This document shows, in pieces, positions 30,241 through 59,143 of a DNA stretch of 64,000 nt. Numbering within the stretch: position 1 is the stretch's first letter; each line of letters starts with the position of its first letter. Under the pieces are notes generated by a model. That model did not search any database and was not told where the DNA came from. It saw only the letters and a program-made list of their open reading frames with translations. This stretch comes from a virus, in the IMG/VR virus record IMGVR_UViG_3300026382_000009, positions 1 to 64,000 of that record, one strand, 5' to 3'. Position numbers and translations under genes: made by a program.

Positions 30241-30948
30241 TTAATATACAATAGCACCAATATTTTTAATATCTTGAAAATCGTTAGTATTGAAAGATTT
30301 TTCAAAAAATACTGTTCCATTAGAAGTGGTATTTTGTGTAGTTTTATAAAATTTATTTAACTTTAAATGCATCTGGCCATCTTGTAATACCCATTCGTCA
30401 TCATAAATCCAAATTGTTTCTGTTTTATTAAAATCTGTAAAAATAACATTTACATTATATTCCGCATCTTGTTTTTTCAAAATAAAAACATGTCTATCAA
30501 ATAATGTATTTTTATTTTGAAAAGGAATAATTAAAATATCACCTGAATTTACTGTAGTTTCTATTTGCTTATAAACAACATTACCAATATCTTTTATTAA
30601 TCCATTTTCTTTATCTTGTTGTAAATTACCTGTCGCTGAAAAATTATTTAGAGCAACATAAAATTTTGTTTTAGTTTCATCAGTAATTAATTCATTTTGT
30701 TTAAAAGATACACCTGCTGAATATGTTTTTAAAATTGGTTCAACATCACCAGCTCTAACTTCAACAGCCCATCCATTATCAATAGCTGTTTGAATAGTTG
30801 TATTATGATCTATATTTTTTAGATTTTTTATTTTGTAAAAATTAATTTTTCCATCAATTATAACAGCAAAATGTTCTCCATCCATTAATTTATCTATTCC
30901 AGTGTTTGATAGAGATTCAAATAATAAAGTGCTTGTTATTTTCTTCAT
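30241..30948 (-). CDS. Virion structural protein
   Basis: ORF with AAGGA RBS; tail-fibre region. Confidence 0.55.
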   Translation of the reverse strand: MKKITSTLLFESLSNTGIDKLMDGEHFAVIIDGKINFYKIKNLKNIDHNTTIQTAIDNGWAVEVRAGDVEPILKTYSAGVSFKQNELITDETKTKFYVALNNFSATGNLQQDKENGLIKDIGNVVYKQIETTVNSGDILIIPFQNKNTLFDRHVFILKKQDAEYNVNVIFTDFNKTETIWIYDDEWVLQDGQMHLKLNKFYKTTQNTTSNGTVFFEKSFNTNDFQDIKNIGAIVY

Positions 30949-30960
30949 TTTATTCCTTTT

Positions 30961-31100
30961 GCAGTCACTCGTTTAAATTTACCTTAGTAAACTTAAACGA
31001 GCAACTGCATCAAGTTGCCCTAACCTGACAACTGTTTTAAGTTGTCTTAAACGGTCAACTGCTATAAGTTGACCTATCGAGGTCACTTTGTTGTGACCTC
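30961..31100 (-). ncRNA. Structured intergenic element: array of CAACT-N6-AGTTG hairpins plus a 22-bp stem
   Basis: CAACT at 31002, 31029, 31056 (27-nt period); fourth hairpin 31079-31100; long stem 30961-31008 with G-U-only mismatches on the minus strand. Confidence 0.6.
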
Positions 31101-31112
31101 TGTAGATCAACT

Positions 31113-33686
31113 TTAATAAATAATTTTTAATGTTTCATAAACACCAACGTAATTTTCAGTTGTTCCCCATCCTGTGCTAATAGTAAAAATATTAAAATAA
31201 CGTTTTCGTATTTTATAAGGCATAAATGGTGAATAATATGTATTTCCTGCTTCATCTAGAAATCTAAATCTCACAAAATAATTTGTTCTCCATTTTAATG
31301 ATCCAGAATTATTTCCAAAGAAAACTCTATTTTTGTTAGTTCTATATGCTGGAACTAAATGTCCAGATAGTTGTTTAGGTGGTCTGTTATATATAGATGT
31401 TTTATTGTTAACAGATTGAGCTGGATTTTCTCTCCAAATTTCTATGTCAAAATCTAAAGATGTATTGTATTCAAAAGCTGGTAAATAAAATGTATTAAAA
31501 AATCTTTTTCTTATAATATGTTTTTTACTAAAATTATTTACATTAGTATACTCACATTCATATGTTACTAAATCCACCTGTTTTACATCAGATAAATAGT
31601 ATTTTTGTCCATCAACATCAATGTATTTTGTTATCATTTTAGGTCTTACATTATCTAAAACTGTTCCATCATATTTAGTAGCTAATAATCTTCCATCAAA
31701 GAAAACTTCTGGTAAATAATATTCATCATATTCTAATGCAAAAATATCATTATTATTTTTAGTATAACCTATAAGTTTAACTTTTGTTGTATAATTTAAA
31801 GGTAATTGAGACGATGGCATATCTGGAAATGAAGTCCATTCCCAATCAGTTCCATAAGTTAAAAGAACACCATTTTTATACAATCTAACTTTACTTTCAT
31901 CTTTCAAAAAGTAAAATCCAAAATCAAGAGTTTGTGATACTTCTACGTATTTGCTACCTTTTCTATAACCTTTTTTAACTTCTTTTCTTGGAATTTGTTT
32001 ATCATAAGCAAATGCCACACCATCATTATTCGTGGCATTAATAGACATTATTTGTGTTATATCATCAAAAATTGAAACATCTTTAAAATAATCTGCTTTT
32101 AATCTAGTATTATCATGAATGTGTAAAAATTTTTTATTCAAAGAAACTTTTATGTTTGGTTTATCAAATTTTTCCCCAATAACAAAATTTAATGAATTTT
32201 CAGTAGAATAAGGGTTTCCTATCCAAAGAGTTTTATCAGAATAAACTAATCCACAATTTTGATATTCAGATACATAAAAATTTTGACCTAAATGACTTAT
32301 GTATGTATTATCTGTATATGGTGTATTTGATGTTGTTGCTACTATTCTGCTACCAGCATAATTATCAGTAGAATTTGTGTTTTCTAAATTAATTTGTGTA
32401 ATACCATAATCGTCATTTTTAATTTTTATAATTTGAGCATTTGATTGAATTTCTTTGTCTTTAGTAATTTTCCAATAATATTTTGTAGATGTATTGTCTC
32501 CATTATCATGATTAGCATATAAATATGATTCATTGTTAGTAATTTTTAAACCTGTTCCTTCAAATAAATTATTTCCTTGGACATAAGCATTTATAAATTT
32601 ATTACCAAAATCAATTGTAAAATCATTTGAATCAGTTCCATTGTTTACAAATGATAATTTATAATTAGTTGTTAAATTAATAGTTGTATTTTCAGATAAT
32701 GTTCCACCTAATTTTACTGTTCCTGAATTCTCTGTTAAACCATTAGTAAAATTATAATTTTTTGATTTTCCAGTAACATTATCAAATAAAATATCGTCTG
32801 TTCCAATTTTAGCCGGTTTTCTAATTTGCCAAATAGTATTTTTGTTGTTGTTACCTTCACCAACAGCTACAAGATAATATGAAATGTCTATTCCATTAGG
32901 AAAATCTGGATGTCTTTCTAATGCTTTATCTTTGTATAAATATATTCCATTCTCTTTTGGATTTGTTTGACCTGCTAAAAAGATAACATCGCCTTCTTGT
33001 GTTTCAATACCATCTATAATATAAGGACCATTTTGAATACCAATATCATAATTTGTATCAGCTTTTAATCTTACTCTAATTGTTCCAGCTCTAGTATTCA
33101 CGAAACTGTAAGGAACAATTTCACCCCTTTTAGATAATCTGTTTTCAGAATAAAAATCATCAGGATTTTGTAAATAAAAATTTGTAGCACTTCCAACATA
33201 CAAAGCAAAATAATCTTTTGTCAAATAACCAGTTAATTGTTTATTTTTATTATTTGGATCTACGTATTGAAAACCTGATATGCCATTCCCAAAAGACCAA
33301 TCAGCGTTTGGTTGAGTAGAACTTGGATGATGAATTATTAATTGTTTATCTTGTGTATTAATAATAGTATCTTTAGTTAAATTTCCACCTAATTGAATAG
33401 TATCATCATTAATTTCAATACCATTATTAGCTGATAAATTTGATTCAAATTTTGCTTCTTGCCAATTAGTATTGTCTGATAAATCTCCATTACCTGAATC
33501 TATCAATTGATAGAATTTACCATCTTCTTTTAAATAAACTAACATACCCCATTTTCTTTTTAATTGAGGTATGTTATCTCTTTCAATAGAATTTTCTACA
33601 GTAACATATCCACCTATTAAATTCTTATCTTCAAGTAATCCAAAATTTCCTCCAGGTTCAAAAGTTCCTGTAATTTTTATTCCCAT
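31113..33686 (-). CDS. Large tail fibre-like protein
   Basis: RKWGMLVY, repeated NG(I/L)..LGG.L...T.I linkers, GQTNPKENGIY. Confidence 0.7.
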   Translation of the reverse strand: MGIKITGTFEPGGNFGLLEDKNLIGGYVTVENSIERDNIPQLKRKWGMLVYLKEDGKFYQLIDSGNGDLSDNTNWQEAKFESNLSANNGIEINDDTIQLGGNLTKDTIINTQDKQLIIHHPSSTQPNADWSFGNGISGFQYVDPNNKNKQLTGYLTKDYFALYVGSATNFYLQNPDDFYSENRLSKRGEIVPYSFVNTRAGTIRVRLKADTNYDIGIQNGPYIIDGIETQEGDVIFLAGQTNPKENGIYLYKDKALERHPDFPNGIDISYYLVAVGEGNNNKNTIWQIRKPAKIGTDDILFDNVTGKSKNYNFTNGLTENSGTVKLGGTLSENTTINLTTNYKLSFVNNGTDSNDFTIDFGNKFINAYVQGNNLFEGTGLKITNNESYLYANHDNGDNTSTKYYWKITKDKEIQSNAQIIKIKNDDYGITQINLENTNSTDNYAGSRIVATTSNTPYTDNTYISHLGQNFYVSEYQNCGLVYSDKTLWIGNPYSTENSLNFVIGEKFDKPNIKVSLNKKFLHIHDNTRLKADYFKDVSIFDDITQIMSINATNNDGVAFAYDKQIPRKEVKKGYRKGSKYVEVSQTLDFGFYFLKDESKVRLYKNGVLLTYGTDWEWTSFPDMPSSQLPLNYTTKVKLIGYTKNNNDIFALEYDEYYLPEVFFDGRLLATKYDGTVLDNVRPKMITKYIDVDGQKYYLSDVKQVDLVTYECEYTNVNNFSKKHIIRKRFFNTFYLPAFEYNTSLDFDIEIWRENPAQSVNNKTSIYNRPPKQLSGHLVPAYRTNKNRVFFGNNSGSLKWRTNYFVRFRFLDEAGNTYYSPFMPYKIRKRYFNIFTISTGWGTTENYVGVYETLKIIY

Positions 33687-33751
33687 TATTCCCTCGCTTA
33701 TGTAATTTATAGAATATTTTAAATCATATAAATATTTAACAAATAAATACG

Positions 33752-36469: not shown

Positions 36470-36527
36470 TTTAATCCTTTATAAATCCTTTTATTTATTT
36501 AATTTTTAAAAGAATTTATAAAGAACA

Positions 36528-36547
36528 AAGTCTCTTGAAAGAGACTT
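36528..36547 (-). terminator. Intrinsic terminator
   Basis: AAGTCTCT-TTCA-AGAGACTT then T-rich tail, at the stop of 36546-37190. Confidence 0.65.
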
Positions 36548-56569: not shown

Positions 56570-59143
56570 TCAAAGAGCTACCTGTATTTTTGCACCACTG
56601 TTAAATATAGCAAGTGTTACAGGAATTTCTTTAATACTTCTCGTAGGTTTAATTCCAACAAATACAGGCATTCTATTGTTATCAATATCTTCATCAGTAA
56701 TTACTGAACTTACTGCTACTTGATAATCATACAAGCCATTTTTAGTTTTAATATCTTCAAGGAAATTTGTAATAGCATTTTCAACTTCTTTCCAAGTTCT
56801 TTCTACGTTTAATTCAAATTCTTTGTATTCAAGCATATTTTTAAGTCCATATTTGATAACAATTAGTAACATTGCAACACTTCTATCATTTAATGGACTT
56901 GGTTTACTATAAAGTGTTCTGTTACCCCAAATTGCAAATCCAGAACCTTTAACATATTTAAGAGGATTAATTTTATTATCACATAAGAAATCTCTATCAC
57001 CTTCATTCGGTTTAATTTTAGAATCTATTACAACAATTTTTCCTCTTAACCATCCAGCGGCAGGATACCACATATAGTAATTTCTGTATGTATAAGATTG
57101 ACTTGCTGCTGCAAATGCATCTGGACCAACCCAAACATATTTTTGGTTATATCTATCAAATATTTTTACCCAACCTGCGAAATAGCTTGCTCTATCAGTA
57201 TCAAGATTTAATCTAGCAACATCATTTACTAATGCATTTTTCCAATCAGCTGCATCTTCAGCATTTGGATCACTTGAGATATATACATGTGTCAAATCTG
57301 TGCTTTGTGCTAATTTTACACATTCTTGAACATAAGGTGTATCATAATAACCACCTGTCATTAAAAGTGTTACTGGTGTTTCACTGTAATTCCATAATTT
57401 ATAAAGGGCATTGATCATATCACCTGTTGTGATTGCACTTCCTTGAGAACCACCTTGAAGTAAATTAACACCAGCATCTAGTAATTTTCCAGCTAATCCT
57501 CCAATATAGATTATTTTATTCAAAGGATAATTGTAAAATACTTTATCCAATTCAGTTATAGGATAATATTGTTTTCCTTTGTAAATTCCTTTTGATAAAT
57601 CATTGTATGTTTCATCAAATTTTAATACTTCAGTATTTTGAACATTACCATTTAGATCTGTATATGTTTTATCAATTTCTTCTTCTTCCAGAGGTCTATC
57701 AATAATAATGTAATTTTCAGAAGAATTAATTGATTGAACTTTGTATTCTTTTGAAATAACATCAGATCCATCAAGATTTACATCATATTTGAATTTAATT
57801 CTATCTCCCATTGATAATGAAGATACATCACTTAGGTAAACTTGCGTATGTCCTTTTAAAATATTTTCGTTTAAAGTTATTCCTGTTTCTCTAAATATTT
57901 CTTCTGGTAATCTTTGCCAATAACTATGATCAGTATACAAAGGTTTGTCTTTTACATTTTTATTATCTAGAACATTAATATATTTAGATTTTCCATTAAT
58001 GACATCTTCTAAATACAATTGATTACCAAATCCATCAATAAAGTCAGTTTTTGTTACTTCCCAAGTTTCTACTAATACTCCATCATAATAAACAAGTATT
58101 TTAAATGCTTCTTCATAATTTGTTGAAGGTGCAATTCCAATTGATACTTTATTAAATTCTACTGATGGATCTTTTCCATATACTAAAAAGCTATCTCTTT
58201 CTTCATATTCAAAATGTTCAACTTTATATAATTTAGTATCAGACGCATCAATTGTTAATTCATTATCTAAATGAATGAATTTTTGCACATAATCATAATT
58301 TTCTTTACTTTTGAATGTTGTATTAGTTCCATCAATTTGAACTGGATCACCTGATTCCATATAATCTGCATTGTATACAAGAATTTCTTTACTTGATTCA
58401 GCATCAACAGCAACTATTACAGGTTTAGTATAACTTGTGTAATTTCCATCATTATCTTTGTCTTGTAAAATTTCAGTTCCAGCTTTTACTGTAACAGGAT
58501 CTTCTAAAGTTATTTTATTCAATAAAGTATGTCTTACTTCTAAATCAACAACTTTCGCTATTTGTTTTGATTCACCATAATCAGTTTCATCATTTAGTGT
58601 ATCAAGTTTTCCATCTTCATCAGATGTAACATAATCACCTTCTTGCAAATTTCCAAATGAACTTACTTCAATATCTTTTACAGTTTGTCCTTGATATGCA
58701 GAAATATCTATACCAGTATCTACATATTGTCTATTTCCTATATAAGTTGGAAAAATAAAACTATCAACATCTTTTTGTGTTAAACCATCTTTCAATGGTT
58801 GAACAATTCTCATTTCATCTGTAAATGTTGCTAATGGATCATTTGGAACTTTTGCTACTTTACTTCTAACTAATGCAGCTGAATATTTTACATCATCATG
58901 TGCAGCTCTAACAACCCATAATTTATTTGATTCTTGCAAATAAGTTATAGCACTATAAAATTCAGGATATCTTGTATCAGGTTCACCAAAAACCTCAATA
59001 AGCTCATTTTCACTTGTAACCAAATAAGGTTTATTCACAGGTCCTTTTTTGCTTCTAATTACTATTCCACCATAAATTCCTGGTACTGATGGAACAATAG
59101 TGCTTCTATCTTGTTGTTTTATAATTACTTTTGCGCTTCCCAT
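56570..59143 (-). CDS. Tail sheath protein (gp18-like)
   Basis: KGPVNKP, FGEPD, LWVVRA, WYPAAGWLRG, INPL, IWGNRTL. Confidence 0.93.
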   Translation of the reverse strand: MGSAKVIIKQQDRSTIVPSVPGIYGGIVIRSKKGPVNKPYLVTSENELIEVFGEPDTRYPEFYSAITYLQESNKLWVVRAAHDDVKYSAALVRSKVAKVPNDPLATFTDEMRIVQPLKDGLTQKDVDSFIFPTYIGNRQYVDTGIDISAYQGQTVKDIEVSSFGNLQEGDYVTSDEDGKLDTLNDETDYGESKQIAKVVDLEVRHTLLNKITLEDPVTVKAGTEILQDKDNDGNYTSYTKPVIVAVDAESSKEILVYNADYMESGDPVQIDGTNTTFKSKENYDYVQKFIHLDNELTIDASDTKLYKVEHFEYEERDSFLVYGKDPSVEFNKVSIGIAPSTNYEEAFKILVYYDGVLVETWEVTKTDFIDGFGNQLYLEDVINGKSKYINVLDNKNVKDKPLYTDHSYWQRLPEEIFRETGITLNENILKGHTQVYLSDVSSLSMGDRIKFKYDVNLDGSDVISKEYKVQSINSSENYIIIDRPLEEEEIDKTYTDLNGNVQNTEVLKFDETYNDLSKGIYKGKQYYPITELDKVFYNYPLNKIIYIGGLAGKLLDAGVNLLQGGSQGSAITTGDMINALYKLWNYSETPVTLLMTGGYYDTPYVQECVKLAQSTDLTHVYISSDPNAEDAADWKNALVNDVARLNLDTDRASYFAGWVKIFDRYNQKYVWVGPDAFAAASQSYTYRNYYMWYPAAGWLRGKIVVIDSKIKPNEGDRDFLCDNKINPLKYVKGSGFAIWGNRTLYSKPSPLNDRSVAMLLIVIKYGLKNMLEYKEFELNVERTWKEVENAITNFLEDIKTKNGLYDYQVAVSSVITDEDIDNNRMPVFVGIKPTRSIKEIPVTLAIFNSGAKIQVAL

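What the first reader, a model, noticed from the sequence alone, without database searches (positions are those of the whole stretch)
30949..31112. 27-nt-periodic hairpin array with a switchable stem beside an RBS
Seen: a GC-richer 164-nt spacer between two tail genes. On the mRNA strand it reads GAGGUCAC-N6-GUGACCUC, GGUCAACU-N6-AGUUGACC, GACAACU-N6-AGUUGUC and GGCAACU-N6-AGUUGCU. All loops are 6 nt, CAACT recurs at exactly 27-nt intervals, and the outer pairs co-vary between copies. The last hairpin overlaps a mutually exclusive 22-bp stem (30961-31008, three mismatches, all G-U) that ends immediately before AAAAGGAAUAAAAUG. Inference: an undescribed cis-regulatory RNA with multiple protein-binding hairpins controlling a structural switch for downstream receptor-binding genes. 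Alternatives are an operator array for a dimeric protein or a REP-like/recombination site.
Basis: partly seen in the sequence, partly recalled or inferred. Interest (0 to 1): 0.8.

Follow-up and report, generated by a model that had tools for sequence, protein, structure and literature searches.

The report
Conserved hairpin-array RNA between phage fibre genes
A 155-nt untranslated spacer in the late tail-fibre operon of a very AT-rich T4-like phage is a real, conserved, folded RNA that matches no described RNA family, but what it does is unproven and the proposed ribosome-site switch is not supported by folding calculations.

Summary
At 30961-31113 on the minus (mRNA) strand there are four 7-8-bp hairpins with 6-nt loops. 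Three share CAACU/AGUUG arms at exactly 27-nt spacing. A 22-bp stem overlaps the fourth hairpin and ends 4 nt before the Shine-Dalgarno sequence of the next gene (fold z = -11.9).

Two metagenomic relatives (neighbouring protein 68-71% identical) carry the same spacer at about 88% identity, against about 75% in flanking coding DNA. All 13 stem substitutions are transitions that keep pairing on the mRNA strand, two pairs being compensatory. Loops vary freely, mostly by transversion, and linkers are almost invariant. This points to an RNA structure under selection, not a dsDNA operator or a coding repeat.

No Rfam family matches. The element is unique in the 109-kb genome and absent from the distant YerA41-type relatives.

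Function is inferred only. My best guess is a processing, stability and expression-uncoupling element: an RNase III-sized duplex plus protective hairpins. Folding models show the ribosome site equally open in all states, and a translation-coupled attenuator model failed. A sequence-specific hairpin-binding factor remains possible.

The scan had not noted this element before on other DNA.

The parts
31113..33686 (-). Upstream late gene of 857 aa, fibre-like. Its stop codon is at 31113-31115.
   Evidence: ORF list. Weak PHROG hits to Ig-like decoration and tail-fibre families. Its last ~200 nt are conserved in L005 and L006.
33704..33711 (-). T4-type late-promoter-like TATAAATT about 20 nt before the 857-aa gene. 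It is the likely start of the transcript that crosses the spacer.
   Evidence: Sequence. The same motif follows a terminator-like hairpin in the ordinary spacer at 36513-36547. Inferred, not shown.
31106..31112 (-). Half-site 0 (AGUUGAU), 1 nt after the stop codon. It can pair with the 5' arm of H2, enclosing H1.
   Evidence: MFE and RNAalifold consensus. Invariant in three genomes.
31079..31100 (-). H1: 8-bp G+C-rich hairpin with its own stem sequence.
   Evidence: Two compensatory base-pair changes and one wobble change among three genomes. The loop changes in length and sequence.
31053..31074 (-). H2: 8-bp hairpin with CAACU/AGUUG core arms.
   Evidence: Core invariant. The outermost pair changes G-C to G-U. 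Four of six loop columns vary.
31027..31046 (-). H3: 7-bp hairpin with CAACU/AGUUG core arms.
   Evidence: Stem invariant and loop variable. Predicted to form in every model.
31000..31019 (-). H4: 7-bp hairpin with CAACU/AGUUG core arms, followed by a U-rich stretch. Its 3' arm is shared with the long stem.
   Evidence: The G-U pair becomes G-C in relatives. Flagged as weakly terminator-like. Forms in truncated transcripts (P 0.83-1.0) but is displaced in the full-length RNA.
30961..31008 (-). Long stem of 22 bp with a 4-nt loop. Its inner 13 bp lie at 30970-30999.
   Evidence: Six one-sided changes among three genomes, all keeping G-U, G-C or A-U pairs, plus one C.A mismatch in relatives. Pairing probability 0.96-1.0.
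30946..30958 (-). Shine-Dalgarno sequence (AAGGA) and ATG of the downstream gene, 3 nt after the long stem.
   Evidence: Sequence. Unpaired probability is the same in all modelled states.
30241..30948 (-). Downstream gene of 235 aa, no known family. It is the first of a tightly packed run of genes (545 aa, 327 aa with a ConA-like lectin domain, 189 aa DUF4376).
   Evidence: The AlphaFold model is unusable (pLDDT 44).

Best explanation
The spacer is a cis-acting structured RNA inside a polycistronic late mRNA. That mRNA probably starts at the late-promoter-like motif before the 857-aa fibre-like gene and runs on into the 235-aa gene and its neighbours.

The RNA folds co-transcriptionally into hairpins H1-H4. 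Once the 3' part is made, it re-pairs into three roughly 48-nt composite hairpins, the last of which is a 22-bp duplex that abuts the ribosome-binding site.

Its most likely job is post-transcriptional. The 22-bp duplex has the length of a minimal RNase III substrate (established knowledge of that enzyme). It could be cut, or could simply act as a barrier. The upstream hairpins would then protect the 3' end of the fibre message, with H4 free to re-form after a cut. The stem next to the ribosome site would protect the 5' end of the downstream message. The two halves of the operon could in that way be given different stabilities and yields, and the long untranslated gap would be shielded from Rho and single-strand nucleases.

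Shown: the structure, its conservation, and its strand.
Inferred: co-transcription, cleavage, and the effect on stability.

The identical CAACU/AGUUG arms and invariant linkers are not explained by this alone. They suggest an additional sequence-specific partner or a multi-register pairing constraint.
For: 1. Structure well beyond chance: z = -11.9.
2. Conservation: about 88% identity in the spacer against about 75% in flanking coding DNA, in two relatives.
3. Pairing: 100% of 129 pair cells are paired in the five-hairpin register and 97% in the composite register. Two pairs in H1 are compensatory.
4. Substitution types: stems have 13 transitions and 0 transversions, all pair-preserving on the sense strand. 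Unpaired positions have 4 transitions, 7 transversions and 2 indel columns (Fisher p = 0.001). The coding background is 432 transitions to 426 transversions.
5. Strand: the sense-strand fold is 8-11 kcal/mol more stable than the antisense fold in all three genomes.
6. Signals: there is no promoter or U-tract terminator of the kind seen in the ordinary spacer of the same operon. The RNA is therefore probably internal to a transcript.
7. The long stem is 22 bp and has pairing probability 0.96-1.0 in all three.
Against: - No transcript ends, cleavage or expression data could be obtained.
- The host, and so its RNase set, is unknown. The phage encodes no RNase III of its own.
- A pure structure or stability role does not explain two things. 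H2-H4 keep identical stem sequences while H1 drifts by compensation, and linkers are far more conserved than loops (1 of 32 against 12 of 28 variable columns, p = 0.0003).
- There are only three sequences, two of them close to each other, so the number of independent events is small.
Confidence: 0.4

Rival explanations
1. Protein-binding hairpin platform. Several copies of a phage or host RNA-binding protein recognise the identical CAACU/AGUUG stems and their flanking linkers. Binding to H4 holds the long stem partly open, and this tunes translation or decay of the downstream fibre-module genes.
For: - H2-H4 stems are invariant in 9 of 9 instances, while H1 changed by compensation over the same divergence.
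- Linkers are nearly invariant while loops vary freely.
- Spacing is a regular 26-27 nt.
- H4 and the outer long stem each have a substitution that favours them, and the H4 loop, which overlaps the long stem, is the only invariant loop.
Against: - No candidate binding protein was identified.
- Folding models show no change in SD-AUG accessibility between states.
- The long stem is favoured over H4 by 4-10 kcal/mol.
- Stem invariance can also come from the need of each half-site to pair with two different neighbours.
Confidence: 0.25
2. A DNA-level site: an operator array for a dimeric DNA-binding protein, a replication origin, or a recombination or cruciform hot spot between fibre modules. The palindromes would be read as duplex or extruded DNA.
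For: - 5-bp half-sites separated by 6 variable bp (11 bp centre to centre) are typical of sites for dimeric helix-turn-helix proteins.
- L005 and L006 are 95-100% identical from the upstream gene's end to about 30790 and about 75% identical beyond. A recombination boundary therefore lies near the spacer.
Against: - All one-sided stem changes give G-U on the sense strand, which would be A.C on the other strand.
- Pairs outside the core differ between copies but stay complementary within each copy. Duplex recognition does not require this.
- H1 evolves by compensation.
- No regulator or recombinase gene is adjacent.
- The element occurs once in the genome.
- Single-stranded DNA hairpins on the same strand are not excluded.
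Confidence: 0.1
3. Translation-coupled attenuator or register shift. A ribosome terminating at the upstream stop codon covers half-site 0, shifts all pairings by one half-site, and so decides whether H4 plus its U-rich tail forms and terminates transcription.
For: - Eight alternating half-sites start 1 nt after the stop codon.
- H4 with its tail is flagged as terminator-like.
- Segments with two alternative partners are expected to be invariant.
Against: - In truncated transcripts H4 forms with P 0.83-1.0 whether or not half-site 0 is blocked, in all three genomes.
- The U-tract is weak.
- In two of the three genomes half-site 0 pairs elsewhere.
Confidence: 0.07
4. Coding sequence or its relic. 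The 27-nt period equals nine codons, and one frame reads through the array as a 9-residue repeat. It would be translated as a small protein or as a frameshift extension of the fibre.
For: - A 43-codon frame is open in the window.
- The repeat part is open in all three genomes.
- Similar nucleotide strings occur inside real genes of unrelated phages.
Against: - In the relatives a stop codon separates the frame from the upstream gene.
- The only candidate start and its Shine-Dalgarno-like sequence are buried in H1.
- Variable columns are not concentrated at third codon positions (5, 2 and 3 at positions 1, 2 and 3).
- The peptide has no homologue among short or longer proteins.
- The palindrome itself dictates the repeated residues.
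Confidence: 0.05

Closest known systems
Intercistronic RNase III sites of phage T7 (and lambda sib)
   Same: A long imperfect RNA duplex of about two helical turns lies between genes of a polycistronic phage mRNA, just upstream of the next ribosome site. In those systems the cut leaves a protective 3' hairpin on the upstream message (established knowledge).
   Different: - Cleavage has not been shown here, and the host is unknown.
- The duplex here is almost perfect, apart from G-U pairs, rather than carrying the typical internal loop.
- It is preceded by an array of identical-stem hairpins that T7 sites lack.
- There is no sequence or covariance-model similarity to any Rfam entry.
REP/BIME palindromes in bacterial operons (for example malE-malF)
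   Same: Clusters of short palindromes with conserved linkers sit in an intercistronic gap. There they stabilise the upstream mRNA segment and set differential expression within an operon (established knowledge).
   Different: - REPs are dispersed families with hundreds of copies, whereas this element occurs once in the genome.
- Period and sequence differ.
- The REP interactions with DNA-level proteins have no counterpart shown here.
PeSL-type promoter / stem-loop / RBS cassettes of T4-type phages, also noted in this genome by the scan
   Same: A long RNA stem whose mismatches are G-U pairs ends just before a ribosome-binding site. The phage is of the same type, and one such cassette gave a weak hit to my model.
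   Different: - PeSL cassettes carry an early promoter and a large A+T-rich loop, and they are repeated through the genome.
- This spacer has no promoter and a 4-nt loop, lies in a late operon, is unique, and has the extra hairpin array.
Phage RNA hairpins that act on transcription (lambda boxB/nut, HK022 put)
   Same: Short conserved hairpins within a phage transcript function as RNA.
   Different: - Those act near promoters, ahead of terminators.
- In those hairpins the loop sequences are the conserved recognition feature, whereas here loops vary and stems are fixed.
- No terminators follow in this operon stretch.

Membership tests
Any Rfam 15 family | Covariance-model score at or above the family's gathering score | tested here: not met
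   There were 0 matches in the whole window at gathering score. At E up to 10, only generic hairpin look-alikes appeared, at 26 bits or less against cut-offs of 40-100.
RNase III processing site | RNA duplex of about 20-22 bp or more on the transcript strand | tested here: met
   22 bp (23 in the MFE), conserved in three genomes with only G-U changes and one mismatch.
RNase III processing site | Cleavage by RNase III in vivo or in vitro, in a host that has the enzyme | not testable with these tools
   The host is unknown. The phage has no RNase III gene. No read data were available.
Intrinsic terminator | G+C-rich hairpin followed directly by a U-tract | tested here: inconclusive
   Only H4 is flagged, with an interrupted U-rich tail. 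H1-H3 and the long stem have no U-tract. A proper example lies at 36528-36547 in the same operon.
Transcription attenuator with alternative hairpins | The choice between terminator and anti-terminator depends on an upstream sensor such as a ribosome, protein or ligand | tested here: not met
   Mutually exclusive helices exist, but H4 forms regardless of whether half-site 0 is blocked.
PeSL cassette | Early promoter inside or next to the stem-loop, with repeated copies in the genome | tested here: not met
   There is no promoter-like site in the spacer on the sense strand. There is a single copy.
Type III toxin-antitoxin RNA array (ToxI-like) | Tandem direct repeats of about 34-48 nt just upstream of a ToxN-family toxin gene | tested here: not met
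   The period is 27 nt. The downstream protein has no Pfam or PADLOC hit. No ToxN match was found in the genome, though the control search was uninformative.
Diversity-generating retroelement target end (IMH plus hairpin) | A reverse transcriptase gene and a template repeat matching the end of the target gene | tested here: not met
   No reverse transcriptase was found. The region has no repeat elsewhere in the genome.
Operator array for a dimeric DNA-binding protein | Conserved half-sites read on duplex DNA, with substitutions indifferent to RNA wobble rules | tested here: not met
   The half-site and spacer pattern fits. However, 13 of 13 stem substitutions are pair-preserving transitions on one strand only.

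The most novel reading that the evidence does not exclude
The array is a multivalent RNA platform. Three to five identical-stem hairpins at 27-nt spacing bind several copies of one phage or host protein, or act as a decoy for a host RNA-guided or RNA-cleaving defence. Occupancy toggles the H4/long-stem pair to set the output of the fibre-tip module. This would be a new class of phage cis-regulatory or anti-defence RNA.
Probability: 0.2. Interest if true: 0.7.

Novelty: new variant of a known kind. Interest (0 to 1): 0.42.

Why it matters
Structured RNAs inside phage late operons are poorly catalogued outside T7, lambda and T4. This one is a clean candidate for a new RNA motif.

- It is conserved more strongly than the neighbouring proteins, and the evidence identifies the strand on which it pairs.
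- Its architecture is unusual: identical-stem hairpins that can pair in two registers, followed by a two-turn duplex at a ribosome site.
- It sits at the boundary of exchangeable tail-fibre modules. If it sets the stoichiometry of fibre components or marks a module junction, it would be useful for understanding, and for engineering in laboratory phages, how multi-gene receptor-binding cassettes are expressed.

As it stands it is a well-supported structure with an unproven function in an uncultured phage clade of three known members.

Tried and rejected
**Searches for relatives**
- blastn and tblastn against GenBank phages found no relative of the region or of the 235-aa protein. The closest named phages by tail sheath are YerA41/GN1 and Carin-5, at about 47% identity.
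- IMG/VR protein-guided scans with both flanking proteins and with a four-sequence alignment found no relatives.
- IMG/VR pattern scans found only two unrelated jumbo-phage loci with a two-hairpin look-alike and chance matches inside coding DNA.
- The scan of GTDB genomes for the double palindrome gave 15 scattered hits, close to chance. They include unrelated 27-28-nt tandem palindromes next to unrelated genes.
- Covariance model R1 found only the source locus in the genome. It found nothing in YerA41, Carin-5, RP13 or the record of a 64%-identical sheath relative.

**Hypotheses tested and set aside**
- Coding or frameshift reading: rejected.
- Diversity-generating retroelement, ToxIN and phage RNase III ideas: no supporting genes.
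- Register-shift attenuator and RBS-masking switch: not supported by constrained folding.

**Other dead ends**
- The AlphaFold model of the 235-aa protein was too poor to search (pLDDT 44). Protein-atlas hits were below useful scores.
- There are no tRNA or tmRNA genes in the window.

Full report
**Setting**

The window is the first 64 kb of a single 109,194-bp virus record with 23.5% G+C. Its ends overlap by about 126 bp. Of 133 long ORFs, 131 lie on the minus strand.

The genes include a tail sheath, a baseplate wedge, fibre-like proteins and an SbcC-like nuclease. Earlier notes of this scan describe T4-type replication and DNA-modification genes elsewhere in the genome. By tail sheath, the nearest named phages are YerA41/GN1 and Carin-5, at about 47% identity.

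The finding lies in the only long gap (164 nt) of a tightly packed run of late genes:
- Upstream is an 857-aa fibre-like gene (31113-33686).
- Downstream is a 235-aa gene of no known family (30241-30948).
- After that come genes of 545, 327 (ConA-like lectin domain) and 189 aa (DUF4376), each separated by 9 nt.

**The observation**

- Four hairpins of 7-8 bp with 6-nt loops.
- Three of them with CAACU/AGUUG core arms exactly 27 nt apart.
- A 22-bp stem with three G-U pairs that shares the 3' arm of the fourth hairpin. It ends 4 nt before the Shine-Dalgarno sequence.

The region folds far better than shuffles (-77.8 kcal/mol, z = -11.9). It is the only cluster of G+C-containing perfect hairpins in the genome.

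I add two points. First, there are eight alternating half-sites. The first starts 1 nt after the upstream stop codon, and the last is a degenerate copy that closes the long stem. Second, the inner part of the long stem is itself a fifth hairpin in phase with the others, with centres 26, 27, 27 and 25 nt apart.

These are half-sites 0-1 around H1, half-sites 2-5 around H3, and half-sites 6-7 forming the long stem.

**Relatives**

The 235-aa protein has three relatives at 68-71% identity. Two of them could be fetched with their DNA, L005 and L006, both from one metagenome.

Both carry the spacer in the same place. Spacer identity to the window is about 88%, against about 75% for the flanking coding DNA.

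**What the substitutions say**

In the five-hairpin register every one of 129 pair cells is a standard pair. In the composite register 97% are.

H1 has two fully compensatory pair changes and a loop that changes in both length and sequence. In the other stems every change is one-sided and gives G-U, G-C or A-U on the mRNA strand.

| Class of column | Transitions | Transversions | Indel columns |
|---|---|---|---|
| Stems | 13 | 0 | 0 |
| Unpaired positions | 4 | 7 | 2 |
| Flanking coding DNA (background) | 432 | 426 | not counted |

The stem versus unpaired contrast gives Fisher p = 0.001.

The sense-strand fold is 8-11 kcal/mol better than the antisense fold in all three genomes. This asymmetry is what an RNA structure on the transcript predicts, or less likely a single-stranded DNA structure on that strand. 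A duplex-DNA operator does not predict it.

Two further contrasts matter:
- Hairpin loops are close to neutral (12 of 28 columns vary), while linkers are almost frozen (1 of 32, p = 0.0003).
- H2-H4 keep identical stems in all nine instances, while H1 drifted by compensation over the same time.

So something beyond pairing constrains the H2-H4 stems and the linkers. It could be a sequence-specific partner. It could also be the need of each half-site to pair with two different neighbours.

**The proposed switch**

H4 and the outer long stem cannot both form. Each has slight evolutionary support:
- One substitution improves H4 and breaks a long-stem pair.
- Two variable positions in the last half-site always keep long-stem pairing.
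- The H4 loop, which overlaps the long stem, is the only invariant loop.

In equilibrium models, however, the long stem wins (P 0.96-1.0, against at most 0.04 for H4). The SD-AUG region is equally unpaired whether or not the 5' half-site is blocked.

I also tested a translation-coupled register-shift attenuator. In transcripts truncated after H4, H4 forms in every case (P 0.83-1.0), so that model fails. The switch is therefore possible as a protein-driven or kinetic event, but it is not supported as a ribosome-site gate.

**What it is not**

- *A known RNA family.* No Rfam family matches.
- *A tRNA or tmRNA gene.* None is found in the window.
- *A repeated element.* No other copy exists in the genome by BLAST, motif scan or covariance model.
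- *A feature of the wider phage group.* The model finds nothing in YerA41, Carin-5 or RP13.
- *A retroelement or ToxIN system.* There is no reverse transcriptase and no template repeat, so it is not a diversity-generating retroelement. There is no ToxN-like gene.
- *An ordinary spacer of this operon.* The spacer at 36470-36545 shows a hairpin with a U-rich tail followed by a TATAAATT late-promoter-like motif. The same motif precedes the 857-aa gene. The spacer under study has neither signal, so it is probably internal to a transcript.
- *A coding repeat.* The 27-nt period equals nine codons and one frame is open. Against coding: the frame is cut off from the upstream gene by a stop codon in the relatives, its only start is buried in H1, variable sites do not favour third codon positions, and the peptide has no homologue. 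The palindrome itself dictates the repeated residues.

**Best explanation and its limits**

I am fairly confident (about 0.8) that this is a selected RNA structure on the late mRNA.

The specific mechanism I favour, at about 0.4, is a processing, stability and uncoupling element. The two-turn duplex would be an RNase III-type target or barrier. The upstream hairpins would guard the 3' end of the fibre message. The stem beside the ribosome site would guard the downstream message. This is how T7 intercistronic sites and bacterial REP clusters work (established knowledge). No step of it is shown here.

DNA-level roles, the attenuator and coding are minor rivals.

L005 and L006 are nearly identical from the end of the upstream gene to about 150 nt into the downstream gene, and about 75% identical beyond. 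The spacer therefore lies in a recently exchanged block. This may be a consequence of its conservation rather than its function.

**Limits of the evidence**

- There are only three sequences, two of them closely related.
- The host is unknown.
- The scan's earlier notes contain no look-alike of this element on other DNA.

Noticed in passing
window 36513-36547 (minus strand): An ordinary intergenic signal pair of this phage: an 8-bp hairpin with a U-rich tail, followed directly by TATAAATT and then a ribosome site. The same TATAAATT lies at 33704-33711 before the 857-aa gene. It is a candidate late-promoter consensus for this phage.
   Followed up: partly
L005:1-130 and L006:1-130; window about 30790-31320: The two metagenome contigs begin at the same base, inside the end of the upstream gene. 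They are 95-100% identical to each other up to about 150 nt into the 235-aa gene, then about 75%. This points to a recent exchange of the upstream fibre module between co-occurring phages, and an assembly break where they diverge.
   Followed up: partly
L001:286-330 and L002:528-572 (IMG/VR contigs of 249 and 294 kb): Two related jumbo-phage contigs have two tandem hairpins with the same 6-nt stem core and 6-nt loops, 29 nt apart, just after a gene end. One independent occurrence is about what chance predicts.
   Followed up: partly
L021:4470-4600 and L009:3050-3140: Unrelated bacterial genomes (a Dethiothermospora strain and a Bacilli MAG) carry tandem 27-28-nt repeats, each holding the same palindrome core. 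They lie in intergenic DNA beside unrelated genes (dehydrogenase, STAS/anti-sigma pair, SatD, serine recombinase). Their function is unknown.
   Followed up: partly
G000:C1:109034-109125 (same as window about 1-60 through the end overlap): The weak model hit is one of the promoter / long-stem / RBS leader cassettes already noted by the scan. Its loop contains a string like half-site 0 of the spacer, probably a -35-like promoter element.
   Followed up: no
window 56570-59143 and 31113-33686: The tail sheath and the fibre-like gene both encode exactly 857 aa but are unrelated (BLASTP E = 0.15). This is a coincidence.
   Followed up: yes
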